A stretch of 7,586 nucleotides of DNA. Source: Escherichia coli (GTDB lineage Bacteria; Pseudomonadota; Gammaproteobacteria; Enterobacterales; Enterobacteriaceae). The notes under the pieces are model-generated. The model had not been told where the DNA came from, did no database searches, and saw only the letters and a list, made by a program, of their open reading frames with translations. Shown in pieces: positions 3,180 to 5,787 of this stretch; the stretch's first letter is position 1; each line of letters begins with the position of its first letter. The DNA is taken from the NCBI RefSeq assembly GCF_003334815.1, contig NZ_QOWO01000067.1. One strand, written 5' to 3'. The translations under genes and the position numbers were made by a program.

Positions 3180-3959
3180 TTATGGAATTCTTTTGAGCAT
3201 AGACACCGCATCGGACTCAGGCATCGAAAACTGCACCCGGTGCCGTGCAGCCACATCCAGTGCAAACACCTTCGTGTAGACCTCCGTTGAGCTGATGGAC
3301 TTATGCCCCATCAGGCTCTGCAGGACCTTCAGCGGTATACCGGCATACAGCATATGCATCGCATAGGAATGGCGGAACGTATGTGGCGTGACCGGGACAG
3401 AGAACGTCACACCGTCAGCGGCAGCGGCGGCAACCGCCTCCCCAATCCAGGTCCTGACCGTTCTGTCCGTCACTTCCCATATCCGCGCTTTCTCTGTCCT
3501 GCCTGTTCGTTTATTACGCCGTTCCATGGGGATTTTCAGTGTGGCCACCATCGTCTGCAGCTGGCTGACGTACCAGGCGTCGGAGAGCGGAACCAGCCGG
3601 TGAGTCTGCTGACCGGCGGGCATTCTTCCTGCCGTCCTGGCGGCTTTTTCCGTCCGTTGTTTCAGGGTCGCAAGCTGCACAAACGGATACGGAGGCGTGA
3701 GCGAAAAATCCCCCCGCGTCAGCGCCAGTGCTTCATTAATGCGCGCACCGGTGTTCCACAGTGTGGCCAGCAGCATCTTGCGGCGCAGATCCGGGACGTA
3801 ATGGAGCAGGGCGCTCACTTCAGGGGCCAGCAGGTATTTGGGCAGTTCATCATGAACCATCGACATCTGGCGGAGTGCCAGCGCTGCCGGATAATCGATG
3901 GCAACAGGAAGCTGAGCGGCATCCCGGGCATGGTGGATCGGTGCCGGCAGGTGCTGCAT
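3180..3959 (-). CDS. Tyrosine site-specific recombinase (plasmid resolvase/integrase family, ResD-like)
   Basis: The C-terminal region carries the tyrosine-recombinase box II signature HTFRHSYAMHML...LMGHKSISSTEVYTKV (His-x-x-Arg, then His, then the catalytic Tyr), and an ARINEAL-type box I arginine sits earlier. Start placed at ATG 3959..3957 (M52 of track ORF 3180..4112), 1 nt after the stop of the upstream ORF, giving 259 aa. Overall it resembles plasmid multimer-resolution recombinases of F-like/I-like plasmids, as recalled from memory, not searched. Confidence 0.85.
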   Translation of the reverse strand: MQHLPAPIHHARDAAQLPVAIDYPAALALRQMSMVHDELPKYLLAPEVSALLHYVPDLRRKMLLATLWNTGARINEALALTRGDFSLTPPYPFVQLATLKQRTEKAARTAGRMPAGQQTHRLVPLSDAWYVSQLQTMVATLKIPMERRNKRTGRTEKARIWEVTDRTVRTWIGEAVAAAAADGVTFSVPVTPHTFRHSYAMHMLYAGIPLKVLQSLMGHKSISSTEVYTKVFALDVAARHRVQFSMPESDAVSMLKRIP

Positions 3960-3960
3960 A

Positions 3961-4374
3961 TCAGTGTTCACTCCACGGGGAAACGTCGGGCAGGTTTTCC
4001 ACAACCCTGTATTTTCCCGGATAACGGAGCTGGTTACCGCCACGCGTCCGGACGGTGACAACAAAACCCCCGCCCTGGTTGTTTTCGGGGAGCAGGCGAT
4101 CGCACTGCTCACTCAGCATGTGGATCACAAACGGCGCATCGCTGCCGTCTTCAAATATCAGTTCCAGCGCATCGCGGCCATCCAGCGTTCCCTTACTGAT
4201 GATGACGTACTCAGCCCCCCGCATCTCCCTGAGTAAATGTTTTGCCGCATCCGGGACAAGCAGCCTGGCTTCGCCGGCATTCCAGCTGAGGTAGACATAT
4301 CCGGCCTGCGCCTGTACAGACTGCCAGTAATCCGTTCTGGCGACAGCCTGACCTTCATTCTCAATAAAAAACAT
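3961..4374 (-). CDS. Hypothetical 137-aa protein, first gene of the recombinase operon
   Basis: Track ORF 3961..4413. I start it at ATG 4374..4372 (MFFIENEGQAV...) because of a strong AAGGAG 8 nt upstream. The stop TGA at 3963..3961 is separated by 1 nt from the recombinase ATG (TGATATG). No recognisable catalytic motif or membrane segments; family not recognised. Confidence 0.6.
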   Translation of the reverse strand: MFFIENEGQAVARTDYWQSVQAQAGYVYLSWNAGEARLLVPDAAKHLLREMRGAEYVIISKGTLDGRDALELIFEDGSDAPFVIHMLSEQCDRLLPENNQGGGFVVTVRTRGGNQLRYPGKYRVVENLPDVSPWSEH

Positions 4375-4410: not shown

Positions 4411-4495
4411 CATGCGATAACGTCATCCATCATCACTGCCCTTACCGTCACTCCGTCTGATAACATCATGCCGTTATCATCATCACCATGATAAC
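4411..4495. repeat. GATAAC/CATG repeat cluster, candidate recombination site or operator for the adjacent recombinase operon
   Basis: GATAAC at 4416..4421, 4459..4464 and 4490..4495, inverted GTTATC at 4473..4478, and CATCATCAC twice (about 4429..4436 and 4479..4486). Three GATAAC copies abut CATG. Lies 40 to 120 bp upstream of the operon start at 4374. Confidence 0.35.
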
Positions 4496-4811
4496 AAGCA
4501 TCCATATAACCACGCCGTTAAATTACCGGAGAGCCGTTTCCGTCAGATCCGACTTTTCGGAATATCACAACTTTCCGGAAGTGTACCACGCTGAGGAAAT
4601 AATCATATCGCTGTTTTCCGCCCCTGCGCGGCGCATCACAGGTCAGGGAGATGACACAACATATAGTGTCATCAGCAGCTGAATCCGGCACCACATGTTG
4701 TGCTGACGGGAGGTGGCGTTGTGTGGGGGGAGAAGAAGATCCGTAACCGCCGGAAACCGGATCTGCGCGGCGGGAAACGGGCAAGTGATATGGTAATTGA
4801 GCAATACACAC

Positions 4812-4867
4812 AAAATCATATCAGATATGATTTTCATCATTGATGATAGAACCATATCTGATATTAT
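4812..4867. promoter_or_regulatory. Palindromic operator array and candidate sigma70 promoter for the + strand operon starting at 4943
   Basis: Perfect 23-bp palindrome AAAATCATATC-A-GATATGATTTT (4812..4834); 13-bp palindrome TCATCA-T-TGATGA (4834..4846); 11-bp palindrome ATATC-T-GATAT (4854..4864). Candidate -35 TTGATG (4840..4845) and -10 TATTAT (4862..4867) with a 16-bp spacer overlap the palindromes. Confidence 0.45.
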
Positions 4868-4942
4868 AAGAAATCAGGAGCACACAAATCATACAGGATA
4901 TTATTTTTACCTGTCAGAACATTATCAGATGGAGCGTGCAGG

Positions 4943-5197
4943 ATGGATGAAGAAAGGGTGTTTTCACTCAGCTATGAGCAACTAACCCGAATAGCGGAAA
5001 AAAATATCCGTGAATGTGGGCTGGACAACCAGAGCGCCAGGTGTATCAGTGAACTGAAGGCCTCAGCTCTGCTGTGGTTGTGGTATGAACTGGCCATTCA
5101 TGGTGCGCCACAGAACAATCACGCACAGGCCCGGGAACGCATCGATACCGATTATCAGCGCCTCAAAAAACTCATCTGGTCGGAGGGTGACAGTTAA
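4943..5197 (+). CDS. Hypothetical 84-aa protein, first gene of a two-gene operon
   Basis: ATG at 4943 with GGAG about 10 nt upstream. The stop TAA (5195..5197) overlaps the next ATG (TAATG). No transmembrane segment; family not recognised. The + strand is preferred over the long antisense ORF (5063..5803, -), whose translation is an Arg/Pro/Ala-rich artefact typical of the reverse strand of a GC-rich gene. Confidence 0.55.
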   Translation: MDEERVFSLSYEQLTRIAEKNIRECGLDNQSARCISELKASALLWLWYELAIHGAPQNNHAQARERIDTDYQRLKKLIWSEGDS

Positions 5198-5787
5198 TGA
5201 CTCAGAGCCGCCGACCGTCGCCACTGCAGCGGAGAGTGCTGATTGTGCTGGCTGCGCTTGATGAAAAACGGCCGGGCCCCGTGCTGACGCGGGACCTGGA
5301 ACGGGTGCTGGAGCGAAGCGGGGAAGCCCCGGTCTACGGGCCAAACCTGCGCGCCTCCTGCCGTCGTCTGGAGGATGCCGGCTGGCTGCGTACCCTGCGC
5401 GCCCCGAACCTGCAGCTGGCAGTGGAGCTGACGGACGCCGGCCGGGCCGTGGCACAGCCTCTGCTGCTGGCAGAACAGGACCGCCTCCGGGCAGAACAGC
5501 GTGCGGCAGAAGTCGTCGTACTGCCGCTGGTCCCGGCAGCAGGTCTGCCCGCAGACGGCACTTCTGCCACTGATCTGGCGGTGGAGCTGAACGGCATAAC
5601 GTATCAGGCCTGCCGCGGGGATTTTGTGGTGCGTCTCGACGGCAGCACCTGTCTGCAGTTATGGAATAAAGAAGGCAGGGTGGTACGCCGGGAGGGCGAT
5701 CCGCTGGAAGTGGCGCAGTGGCTGCAGGCCTGTCATGACGCAGGAATAGAGGTTCGCGTACAGATAAATGAAAGTGCCGCTCCGTAA
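5197..5787 (+). CDS. Hypothetical 196-aa protein, possible winged-helix DNA-binding N-terminal domain
   Basis: ATG at 5197 overlaps the upstream stop. The N-terminal ~90 aa (LQRRVLIVLAALDEKRPGPVLTRDLERVLERSG...) has the hydrophobic/charged periodicity of a winged-helix domain (inference). The C-terminal ~100 aa is unrecognised. Markedly GC-rich compared with the rest of the window. Confidence 0.55.
   Translation: MTQSRRPSPLQRRVLIVLAALDEKRPGPVLTRDLERVLERSGEAPVYGPNLRASCRRLEDAGWLRTLRAPNLQLAVELTDAGRAVAQPLLLAEQDRLRAEQRAAEVVVLPLVPAAGLPADGTSATDLAVELNGITYQACRGDFVVRLDGSTCLQLWNKEGRVVRREGDPLEVAQWLQACHDAGIEVRVQINESAAP

What the first reader, a model, noticed from the sequence alone, without database searches (positions are those of the whole stretch)
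4812..4930. Stack of three related palindromes overlapping a candidate promoter
A perfect 23-bp palindrome (4812..4834) is followed immediately by a 13-bp palindrome (4834..4846) and an 11-bp palindrome (4854..4864). The core ATATC-N-GATAT occurs in both the first and third, and a partial copy TTATCAGAT lies at about 4922..4930. A TTGATG-N16-TATTAT promoter-like element is embedded in them. This density of dyad symmetry is well beyond chance in 60 bp and looks like a multi-site operator for a dimeric repressor, possibly the winged-helix protein encoded downstream.
Basis: seen in the sequence. Interest (0 to 1): 0.5.

Follow-up and report, generated by a model that had tools for sequence, protein, structure and literature searches.

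The report
Repressor binding-site array at ydfA-ydeA promoter
The palindromes are a conserved, evenly spaced row of protein-binding sites over the promoter of a two-gene plasmid operon (ydfA-ydeA), most likely the self-regulating operator of the winged-helix protein YdeA; the module is uncharacterised and common in E. coli, Salmonella and Klebsiella plasmids, but it is an ordinary kind of switch.

Summary
The window is IncI1/I-gamma plasmid backbone, 100% identical to NZ_CP024481.1. The perfect 23-bp one is unlikely by chance (P about 0.0004).

- The real units are three dyads, AAATCAT-N7-ATGATTT, at 4812-4834, 4849-4870 and 4886-4907. Their centres are 36 and 37 bp apart.
- Two in-register half-sites flank them, at 4786-4796 and 4919-4930.
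- The 13-bp palindrome and the TTGATG -35 are not conserved.

In 19 loci from about 12 enterobacterial genera (61-100% pairwise identity), the arms are conserved and the spacers are not. Site 2 carries a conserved extended -10 (TGnTATGAT).

The array always travels with ydfA (84 aa) and ydeA (196 aa), whatever lies to the left. It starts just right of the rfsF/ResD crossover core (4737-4764).

Best reading: YdeA binds this array and represses its own operon. This rests on computation only. It is a new member of a known kind, of moderate interest.

The parts
4737..4764 (.). Context and left boundary: deduced rfsF (ResD) crossover core, AGATCCGTAAC-CGCCGG-AAACCGGATCT.
   Evidence: Plasmid mosaic junctions fall at window 4747-4749, inside the 6-bp spacer. 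The inverted arms are kept in every context. The literature places rfsF at the Col/Delta switch point of IncI1 plasmids (PMC8004404).
4786..4796 (+). Right-arm-only half-site, TGATATGGTAA (GATATGATAAT in relatives). It is in register with the array and is also a -10-like TATGAT, so it is an alternative promoter candidate.
   Evidence: Mean information content 1.63 bits over 19 loci. GATATKRT occurs at 4787, 37 bp before the one at 4824. In a ydfA-only locus this block has become TATAAT.
4812..4834 (.). Site 1: perfect 23-bp palindrome. The conserved arms are AAAATCATA and TATGATTTT; the inner 5 bp vary.
   Evidence: P = 0.0004. Arm information content 1.89 and 1.70 bits against 0.89 for the inner bases.
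4835..4839 (+). Extra conserved ATCAT half-site next to site 1.
   Evidence: Information content 1.46 bits, against 0.89 for 4840-4849. See also alignments A3 and A6.
4849..4870 (.). Site 2: dyad AACCATATCTGATATTAT (AATCATATCTGATATGAT in relatives). Here the inner bases are conserved as well.
   Evidence: copy 2 of family D1. Inner-base information content 1.79 bits.
4859..4867 (+). Extended -10 element, TGaTATTAT, inside the right half of site 2. The weak -35-like TTGATG at 4840-4845 is not conserved. The predicted transcription start is about 4874.
   Evidence: Promoter scan. TG precedes this hexamer in 21 of 23 loci, but only sporadically at the other arms. BProm put the promoter 103 bp and the start 69 nt upstream of ydfA in pUA1135 (PMC12111858); mapped onto this window, 4943-103 = 4840 and 4943-69 = 4874.
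4886..4907 (.). Site 3: dyad AAATCATACAGGATATTATTTT (AAATCAT-N7-ATGATTT in relatives). It would lie in the 5' leader if the site-2 promoter is used.
   Evidence: 82% identical to site 1. Arm information content 1.43 and 1.68 bits against 0.72 for the inner bases.
4919..4930 (+). Conserved leader block ACATTATCAGAT.
   Evidence: Information content 1.52 bits. ATCA at 4924 is 36 bp after the ATCA at 4888.
4931..4945 (+). Shine-Dalgarno GGAG (4931-4934) and the ydfA start codon (4943).
   Evidence: Information content 1.78 bits; nearly invariant GGAGCGTGCAGGATG.
4943..5197 (+). ydfA, 84 aa. It is modelled as a three-helix bundle with no DNA-binding fold recognised.
5197..5787 (+). ydeA, 196 aa. 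It has an N-terminal winged helix (residues 9-78), a long helix (80-104) and a C-terminal beta-rich domain (127-190). It is the proposed binder of the array. Its start overlaps the ydfA stop (TAATG).
4473..4495 (.). Possible outlying site ('site 0'): GTTATCAT-CATCACC-ATGATAAC, upstream of the divergent 137-aa/resD operon. It has the same ATCAT-N7-ATGAT arms but belongs to the resD-side module.
   Evidence: The 105-kb plasmid holds only two exact ATCAT-N7-ATGAT matches, and both are in this intergenic region (0.12 expected). Site 0 is present in L010, with 1-mismatch variants in L002 and L009.

Best explanation
The region 4786-4930 is a periodic array of binding sites for a dimeric DNA-binding protein. 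It is laid over the promoter and leader of the ydfA-ydeA operon of an IncI1-type plasmid.

Anatomy: three full dyads (AAATCAT-N7-ATGATTT) have centres at 4823, 4859 and 4896, that is 36 and 37 bp apart (about 3.5 helical turns). One in-register half-site flanks them on each side. The two arms of a dyad are 12 bp apart, which suits two recognition helices of a winged-helix dimer in adjacent major grooves. Site 2 contains the operon's extended -10 (TGaTATTAT, 4859-4867). Site 1 then lies just upstream of the promoter and site 3 lies in the leader, at about +22.

Proposed mechanism: YdeA, the second gene product, has an N-terminal winged helix, a long helix and a C-terminal domain. It binds the dyads as dimers, probably cooperatively along the array. 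This occludes RNA polymerase at site 2 and holds its own operon at a low, self-limited level. In other plasmids the same operon also carries downstream cargo, such as the phage-defence gene ibfA or an Hha-domain gene, which would be held down too.

What is shown by computation: the sites, their conservation and spacing, their linkage to ydeA, and the winged-helix fold.

What is inferred: that YdeA is the binder, that binding represses, and where transcription starts.
For: 1. Real and non-random. P = 0.0004 for the 11-bp arms. Three copies lie at 36/37 bp. GATATKRT occurs at 4787, 4824, 4860 and 4897, against 1.1 matches of this 8-mer class expected in the whole window.

2. Phylogenetic footprint. 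Nineteen loci were compared (pairwise identity mean 72%, minimum 61%). Arms score 1.4-1.9 bits; the inner bases of sites 1 and 3 score 0.7-0.9; spacers score 0.6-0.9. The dyads are kept by sequence conservation, not by compensatory change: 87.3% of cells are paired against 86.4% in shuffles. That pattern argues for a protein site rather than an RNA or DNA hairpin.

3. Linkage. The array sits at about -129, -93 and -56 from the ydfA ATG in IncI1, IncF and other replicons of Escherichia, Salmonella, Klebsiella, Enterobacter, Citrobacter, Buttiauxella, Phytobacter, Hafnia, Raoultella, Pluralibacter and Superficieibacter. The left-hand neighbours differ: resD operon, arsR, IclR, korC, DUF4238.

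4. The binder is YdeA rather than YdfA.
- Yersinia ydeA homologues (47-48% identity) lack ydfA, yet have AATCA arms at -113/-77/-42/-6 and at -126/-89/-53/-18.
- A 48%-identity homologue on a Rep3 metagenomic plasmid has TGATT arms at -117/-81/-44.
- A 31%-identity homologue has a single TTAATCAC-N7-GTGATTAA 72 nt upstream of its start codon.
- A ydfA-only lineage retains only one dyad.

5. Local target. Apart from site 0 at 4473-4495, which lies in the same intergenic region, there is no other exact motif in the 105-kb plasmid.

6. Promoter. The TG-extended -10 in site 2 is conserved in 21 of 23 loci. Its position coincides with the BProm prediction in PMC12111858. That paper also shows by RT-PCR that ydfA, ydeA and the downstream genes are co-transcribed.
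Against: - There are no binding, footprinting, reporter or transcription-start data for this module in the searchable literature.
- YdeA matches no Pfam or NCBIfam family at significance. The winged helix therefore rests on an AlphaFold model built from a 21-sequence alignment.
- The -35 is not conserved. A second -10-like block (4786-4796) is equally conserved, so the promoter position is uncertain.
- The right arm TATGAT itself resembles a -10 hexamer, so part of the conservation could reflect promoter elements.
- Over 47-100% YdeA identity the arms barely change, so protein-operator co-variation could not be shown.
- A conserved host factor of Enterobacterales, or a YdfA-YdeA complex, is not excluded.
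- The pS88 qRT-PCR data show only that ydfA and ydeA are transcribed, and if anything lower in iron-poor medium. They say nothing about autoregulation.
Confidence: 0.65

Rival explanations
1. The array is a real protein-binding array, but the binder is not YdeA alone. It could be a conserved enterobacterial host factor, YdfA, or an obligate YdfA-YdeA complex. In the last case YdfA would act as co-repressor or anti-repressor.
For: The arms are almost invariant across hosts and across 47-100% YdeA identity, which is also what a conserved host protein would produce. ydfA and ydeA are translationally coupled (TAATG overlap) and co-occur in nearly all plasmid loci.
Against: The best Fur-box match is 12 of 19, no better than shuffles (P = 0.34). 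In pS88, ydfA was not induced by iron depletion (0.17-fold). YdfA has no recognisable DNA-binding fold. Dyads persist upstream of ydeA homologues that lack ydfA. The array is decayed in a ydfA-only lineage. The array is always next to ydeA, which a host-factor site would not require.
Confidence: 0.15
2. The dyads are accessory (architectural) sites of the adjacent rfsF/ResD multimer-resolution site. They would be analogous to res subsites II and III of Tn3-family resolvases, or to the accessory arms of cer/psi. The binder would be ResD itself or YdeA, and the sites would impose topological selectivity on recombination.
For: The array begins about 22 bp to the right of the deduced rfsF core. 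Nearly every ydfA module carries the rfsF right arm CGGATCTG at its left edge. A fourth ATCAT-N7-ATGAT palindrome with an asymmetric 7-bp spacer lies on the resD side, at 4473-4495.
Against: The rfsF of pO157, an F-type (IncFIA/FIB/FII) plasmid, has the same core and left-hand region but no dyads on its right (L008). In L010 and L003, four other genes separate the resD-proximal rfsF from the array. The about 215 bp conserved with resD operons in more than 5000 plasmids lies to the left of the core. The Yersinia arrays have no CGGATCT arm nearby. The dyads overlap a conserved -10 and sit at a fixed distance from the ydfA start.
Confidence: 0.07
3. The array is a centromere-like or silencing array. 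YdeA would polymerise along a 36.5-bp lattice, as TubR, ParR or omega-type proteins do on iterons. The function would be plasmid maintenance or nucleoid-like silencing rather than simple autoregulation.
Against: There are only three to five units. No partner motor gene travels with the module; the ParA and ParM genes of the window are backbone genes that are absent from the Klebsiella contexts. The array is fixed relative to the ydfA start and the -10. The TubR similarity is no better than that to dozens of MarR-type repressors.
Confidence: 0.05
4. There is no dedicated binding protein. The pattern would be A+T-rich promoter DNA with several -10-like hexamers (TATGAT/TATTAT), and the palindromes would arise by chance.
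For: The region is 33% G+C. The right arm equals a near-consensus -10.
Against: Shuffles give P = 0.0004. The left arms (ATCAT), which are not -10-like on the coding strand, are as conserved as the right arms. The 36-37 bp spacing is kept across genera and in ydfA-less homologues.
Confidence: 0.03

Closest known systems
MarR/HxlR/PadR-type winged-helix autorepressors (for example MarR, QsrR, SlyA) binding palindromic operators over their own promoters
   Different: There is no significant sequence match to Pfam MarR, HxlR or PadR. YdeA has an extra C-terminal beta-rich domain of about 70 residues. The regulator is the second gene, behind a small helical protein. The operator is a regular 36-37 bp lattice of three dyads plus two half-sites, rather than one or two sites.
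AbiEi-type antitoxin/autoregulators (winged helix plus C-terminal domain; cooperative binding to two inverted repeats in the abiE promoter). This comparison is from my own knowledge of Hampton et al., NAR 2018.
   Same: It is a protein of about 200 aa with an N-terminal winged helix and a second domain. It would show negative autoregulation through several inverted repeats in the promoter. There is a weak AbiEi_4 Pfam hit (E = 0.07). In Delta-type IncI1 plasmids the operon carries the abortive-infection gene ibfA.
   Different: No AbiEii nucleotidyltransferase toxin partner is present. The Pfam hit is below threshold. The PADLOC search gives only a weak JetA-like hit (E = 0.0037). The repeat geometry is different.
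Multi-subsite recombination sites (Tn3/gamma-delta res; cer/psi accessory sequences)
   Same: Several dyads lie at defined spacing immediately beside a site-specific recombination core (rfsF, 4737-4764).
   Different: The dyads are not required next to rfsF in other plasmids (L008, L010). They are fixed relative to a gene start and a -10. ResD is a tyrosine recombinase, and its conserved flanking DNA lies on the other side of the core.
Global plasmid regulators with reiterated operators (KorA/KorB of IncP; StbA, ArdK and KorA of R388). This comparison is from my own knowledge.
   Same: A plasmid-encoded repressor recognises short palindromes at promoters of maintenance or accessory operons.
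   Different: This motif is confined to one intergenic region of the 105-kb plasmid, so the circuit looks local rather than a plasmid-wide regulon.

Membership tests
Operator of a dimeric repressor overlapping a sigma-70 promoter | Dyad-symmetric sites whose arms, rather than spacers, are conserved among relatives | tested here: met
   Information content is 1.4-1.9 bits in the arms against 0.6-0.9 bits in the spacers, over 19 loci. No compensatory pattern was found.
Operator of a dimeric repressor overlapping a sigma-70 promoter | Overlap with a functional promoter (-10 and -35 elements, mapped transcription start) | tested here: inconclusive
   The extended -10 TGnTATGAT in site 2 is conserved in 21 of 23 loci and is found by the scan. 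The -35 is not conserved. A second -10-like block lies at 4786-4796. The only published start site is a BProm prediction (PMC12111858).
Operator of a dimeric repressor overlapping a sigma-70 promoter | Demonstrated binding of the cognate protein and change of transcription | not testable with these tools
   This needs EMSA or footprinting and reporter assays. Nothing was found in the literature searches.
MarR family (Pfam PF01047/PF12802) | Significant sequence match to the family profile | tested here: not met
   Pfam gives no hit with E <= 0.001 for YdeA or for any of the 21 aligned homologues. A profile search of the PDB gives only weak MarR hits, E = 0.007-0.01.
MarR family (Pfam PF01047/PF12802) | Winged helix-turn-helix fold | tested here: met
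AbiEi antitoxin (PF13338) / type IV abiE toxin-antitoxin system | Profile match, and an adjacent AbiEii (DUF1814) nucleotidyltransferase toxin gene | tested here: not met
   AbiEi_4 gives E = 0.073 and 0 of 21 members reach E <= 0.001. The neighbours are ydfA (a helical bundle) and a convergent DUF6404 gene.
Fur box | Match to GATAATGATAATCATTATC better than chance, and iron-dependent repression | tested here: not met
   The best match is 12 of 19, with P(>=12) = 0.34 in shuffles. In pS88, ydfA was 0.17-fold in iron-depleted LB.
Accessory sites of the rfsF/ResD resolution site | Present next to rfsF wherever ResD-type systems occur | tested here: not met
   Absent to the right of rfsF in pO157 (L008) and at the resD-proximal rfsF of L010. 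The Yersinia arrays lack an rfsF arm.
Structured RNA or attenuator hairpins in the leader | Base pairs maintained by compensatory changes; a match to an RNA family | tested here: not met
   Only 2 of 25 pairs show any double change, and paired cells are 87.3% against 86.4% in shuffles. The only Rfam hit is mir-463 at 30.6 bits against a gathering score of 70.

The most novel reading that the evidence does not exclude
The rfsF core, the YdeA-bound lattice, ydfA-ydeA and the variable downstream cargo (ibfA, an Hha-domain gene, others) form a portable, self-regulated 'cargo head'. ResD-type recombination at rfsF would shuffle this unit between IncI and IncF plasmids. The YdeA nucleoprotein array, sitting directly beside the crossover site on alternate DNA faces, would also act architecturally. 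It would either insulate the promoter from events at rfsF or modulate ResD synapsis, possibly together with the matching palindrome at 4473-4495 on the other side.
Probability: 0.1. Interest if true: 0.6.

Novelty: new member of a known kind. Interest (0 to 1): 0.35.

Why it matters
The ydfA-ydeA pair is present in at least 5000 of the 72,556 PLSDB plasmids. These include epidemic IncI1 and IncF resistance and virulence plasmids of E. coli, Salmonella and Klebsiella. It is annotated everywhere as 'hypothetical', and at least once it is confused with the chromosomal arabinose exporter YdeA.

If YdeA is the repressor of this array, it controls whatever lies downstream in the operon. In Delta-type IncI1 plasmids that is the phage-defence gene ibfA, which RT-PCR shows is co-transcribed with ydfA and ydeA. 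In Klebsiella IncF plasmids it is a DNA-binding protein and an Hha-domain gene.

The finding gives a precise operator model that can be tested directly: a consensus, a spacing and a candidate -10. It also gives an annotation for a very common plasmid module. In kind, though, it is a conventional autoregulatory circuit.

Tried and rejected
- Frpo/ssi-type single-strand promoter. The region left of the array (4490-4800) matches thousands of plasmids, sometimes several times per record. I rejected the idea because the element is single-copy in this plasmid and is not found near ssb, psiB or ardA. It always sits upstream of ccdAB/137-aa-resD operons. The ssDNA folds are only weakly better than shuffles (z about -2). 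ydfA-ydeA point away from oriT. It is the rfsF region.
- Fur box: rejected.
- RNA family or hairpin: rejected.
- Plasmid-wide regulon: the 105-kb plasmid has no other exact site outside this intergenic region.
- Protein-operator co-variation. I looked at homologues of 31-49% identity. One has a matching single dyad (L016). One has a different palindrome, ACTATTAT-N5-ATAATAGT (L018). Several show nothing clear (L020, L023, L024). There were too few for a statistical statement.
- The search for related loci with the wide alignment A4 failed because it had no conserved stretch. It was repeated with A5.
- P0268 could not be located on a contig.
- The minus-strand promoter-like match CTGACA-N18-TATGAT (4917..4888) has a -35 that is conserved only within the IncI1 Col subgroup. 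I did not pursue it.

Full report
**Where the window comes from.** The window is 100% identical to the IncI-gamma/K1 conjugative plasmid NZ_CP024481.1 of E. coli. From left to right it carries:
- ParM and ParA partition genes (minus strand);
- a ResD-like tyrosine recombinase, annotated as 259 aa (window 3180-3959), preceded by a 137-aa gene (3961-4374), both on the minus strand;
- a 568-bp intergenic region;
- two plus-strand genes of 84 aa (4943-5197) and 196 aa (5197-5787);
- a convergent DUF6404 gene, then colicin Ia immunity and colicin Ia.

Some records name the two small genes ydfA (84 aa) and ydeA (196 aa) (PMC12111858).

**Checking the observation.**
The TTGATG-N16-TATTAT element is found by the promoter scan, with a TG before the -10.
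- In 5000 dinucleotide-preserving shuffles of 4801-4942 (33% G+C), a perfect arm of 11 or more occurred with P = 0.0004. The summed arm length was reached with P = 0.0018.
It is a 22-nt dyad present three times, at 4813-4834, 4849-4870 and 4886-4907, with start-to-start spacing of 36 and 37 bp. The third copy was missed.
- The octamer GATATKRT occurs at 4787, 4824, 4860 and 4897. Left-arm ATCA occurs at 4815, 4888 and 4924, with ACCA at 4851. The array is therefore a 36.5-bp lattice of three full dyads plus a right-arm half-site (4786-4796) and a left-arm half-site (4919-4930).

**Comparative footprint.** I collected homologous upstream regions from plasmids and genomes of about 12 enterobacterial genera and aligned 19 of them. 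Pairwise identity averaged 72%, with a minimum of 61%.
- Information content is high in the arms: 1.89 and 1.70 bits for site 1, 1.52 and 1.53 for site 2, and 1.43 and 1.68 for site 3.
- It is low in the inner five bases of sites 1 and 3 (0.89 and 0.72) and in the spacers (0.58-0.89).
- The flanking half-site blocks (1.63 and 1.52) and the SD-ATG region (1.78) are also conserved.
Only its left arm, ATCAT at 4835-4839, is.
- The site positions relative to the ydfA ATG (-129, -93, -56) are nearly invariant.
- The dyads are maintained by sequence conservation, not by compensatory change. Paired cells are 87.3% against 86.4% in shuffles, and only 2 of 25 pairs show any double change. The only Rfam hit is a sub-threshold miRNA artefact. 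This is the signature of a protein-binding site, not of an RNA or cruciform structure.

**Context: the rfsF boundary.**
- Searching the intergenic region against PLSDB shows it is mosaic. Window 4521-4748 is conserved in more than 5000 plasmids. Hits either end at window 4747/4748 or begin at 4740/4749.
- The left part always lies upstream of ccdAB-resD or 137-aa-resD operons.
- The junction falls in the 6-bp spacer of an 11-6-11 inverted repeat, AGATCCGTAAC-CGCCGG-AAACCGGATCT (4737-4764), whose arms are kept in all contexts. I take this to be the rfsF crossover core.
[quoted passage not shown] 2010) and as a hotspot of plasmid mosaicism (PMC9412624).
- The dyad array belongs to the module on the right of this core. 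It is found with ydfA-ydeA next to resD operons, arsR, an IclR gene, korC or a DUF4238 insertion.
- It is absent to the right of rfsF in pO157 and at the resD-proximal rfsF of L010.

**Who binds.**
- YdfA is modelled with confidence (pLDDT 88.7) as a three-helix bundle. Only generic helical neighbours were found, and it has no significant profile match.
- By sequence YdeA belongs to no Pfam or NCBIfam family. It has only weak profile hits to MarR structures (E = 0.007).
- The family is small: 221 cluster representatives at E <= 0.001 among 1.84 billion.
- More distant ydeA homologues that lack ydfA keep the DNA signature:
  - Yersinia loci (47-48% identity) have AATCA arms at -113/-77/-42/-6 and at -126/-89/-53/-18.
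  - A 48%-identity homologue on a Rep3 metagenomic plasmid has TGATT arms at -117/-81/-44.
  - A 31%-identity homologue has a single TTAATCAC-N7-GTGATTAA 72 nt upstream of its start.
- A widespread ydfA-only lineage retains just one dyad.
- In the 105-kb plasmid the exact motif ATCAT-N7-ATGAT occurs only twice, both times in this intergenic region, against 0.12 expected.
- Together these results point to YdeA, acting locally on its own promoter.

**Promoter.**
- The right arm of every dyad (TATGAT/TATTAT) resembles a -10. Only at site 2 is it preceded by TG in 21 of 23 loci, and only site 2 has conserved inner bases (1.79 bits). That is what an overlapping extended -10 would produce.
- The -35 at 16-18 bp is weak and variable.
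- A BProm prediction published for the IncI1 plasmid pUA1135 places the promoter 103 bp and the transcription start 69 nt upstream of ydfA. Mapped onto this window these are 4840 and 4874, the same element. The paper also shows by RT-PCR that ydfA, ydeA, ibfA and a proQ-like gene are co-transcribed (PMC12111858).
- With this promoter, site 1 is centred at about -51, site 2 covers the -10, and site 3 lies at about +22.
- The equally conserved block at 4786-4796 is an alternative or additional -10. It has become TATAAT in the ydfA-only lineage. The transcription start therefore needs to be mapped.

**Mechanism proposed.**
- YdeA dimers bind the dyads. The arm centres are 12 bp apart, which suits a winged-helix dimer.
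- Adjacent dyads are 3.4-3.5 helical turns apart, so neighbouring dimers lie on opposite faces. Sites 1 and 3 are about 7 turns apart, on the same face.
- Occupancy of site 2 would block RNA polymerase, and sites 1 and 3 and the half-sites would add cooperativity. The outcome is negative autoregulation of ydfA-ydeA and of any cargo downstream.
- Shown by computation: the sites, their conservation, spacing and linkage, and the fold.
- Inferred: the binder, the sign of regulation, cooperativity and the transcription start.

**Rivals.**
- A host factor such as Fur is not supported. The best Fur-box match is 12 of 19 (P = 0.34), and ydfA was not induced by iron depletion in pS88.
- Accessory sites for ResD/rfsF are unlikely, because rfsF occurs without them and the Yersinia arrays occur without rfsF arms. 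However, the constant adjacency of the module to rfsF and the matching palindrome at 4473-4495 leave some room for an architectural role.
- A centromere-like filament array is possible in principle (regular lattice; TubR among the neighbours), but no motor gene travels with the module.
- Chance is excluded by the shuffles and by the conservation.

**Verdict.**
- In kind this is an ordinary autoregulatory repressor-operator circuit. Its points of interest are that the protein family is uncharacterised and matches no existing profile, that the operator is an unusually regular 36-37 bp lattice, that the module is very common in clinically important plasmids, and that it heads operons carrying phage-defence or Hha-domain cargo next to a recombination hotspot.

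Noticed in passing
window 4737-4764 (core) and 4521-4736 (left flank): This is the deduced rfsF/ResD crossover core, AGATCCGTAAC-CGCCGG-AAACCGGATCT. Plasmid mosaic junctions fall in its 6-bp spacer. The ~215 bp to its left is conserved in more than 5000 plasmids, always upstream of ccdAB-resD or 137-aa-resD operons, and is probably the accessory region of the resolution site.
   Followed up: partly
window 4473-4495: A palindrome, GTTATCAT-CATCACC-ATGATAAC, lies about 100 bp upstream of the divergent 137-aa/resD operon. It has the same ATCAT-N7-ATGAT arms as the ydfA operator. It is one of only two exact matches in the 105-kb plasmid. It travels with the resD-side module (L010; 1-mismatch variants in L002 and L009). 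It could be a cross-regulatory YdeA site or the operator of the 137-aa gene.
   Followed up: partly
window 4604-4633 and 4763-4792: An imperfect inverted repeat of about 30 bp (CATATCGCTGTTTTCCGCCCCTGCGCGGCG / CTGCGCGGCGGGAAACGGGCAAGTGATATG) brackets the rfsF core. One arm lies in the resD-side module and the other in the ydfA-side module. It pairs in the ssDNA fold, but the fold is only about 2 SD better than shuffles.
   Followed up: no
window 3180-4112 (minus strand): The mechanical 310-aa ORF over-extends the recombinase. RefSeq annotates 259 aa (3180-3959), directly preceded by a 137-aa gene of unknown function (3961-4374). That gene takes the place that ccdAB occupies in F-like plasmids (L004, L008).
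   Followed up: partly
window 5001-5750: ydeA is 63-67% G+C. The operator is about 33% and the neighbouring plasmid DNA 41-46%. The coding region appears to be compositionally foreign to its own promoter.
   Followed up: no
window 5195-5199: The ydfA stop and the ydeA start overlap (TAATG), which suggests translational coupling of the two genes.
   Followed up: no
window 4888-4917 (minus strand): A good promoter-like match on the opposite strand (CTGACA-N18-TATGAT, 10 of 12) has its -10 in the left arm of site 3. Its -35 (CCTGTCAG on the plus strand) is conserved only within the IncI1 Col subgroup. It may be a divergent promoter under the same operator.
   Followed up: no
L046 and L047 (Yersinia pekkanenii, Y. 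ruckeri); L021/L022 (metagenomic Rep3 plasmid): These ydeA homologues of 47-48% identity have no ydfA. They keep arrays of three to four AATCA...TGATT units at a 35-37 bp period directly upstream, the last overlapping the start codon in Yersinia.
   Followed up: partly
L051 and relatives (ydfA-like gene P0211, next to a Ter-family gene): This is a widespread ydfA-only lineage with no ydeA. The array is reduced to one dyad, and the upstream half-site block has become a consensus TATAAT.
   Followed up: partly
literature: PMC12987596: A 2026 GWAS of IncK2 plasmids interprets the plasmid gene 'ydeA' as the chromosomal L-arabinose exporter YdeA. That looks like a name collision: in this window, the plasmid gene named ydeA in plasmid annotations encodes the 196-aa winged-helix protein described here.
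   Followed up: no
L011, L002, L013 (Klebsiella and Enterobacter IncF plasmids): In these plasmids the ydfA-ydeA pair heads a longer same-strand gene row: a DNA-binding protein, hypothetical proteins, an Hha-domain protein, and then a DUF1778/GNAT toxin-antitoxin pair. In L013 the ydeA homologue is fused or extended to 403 aa.
   Followed up: no
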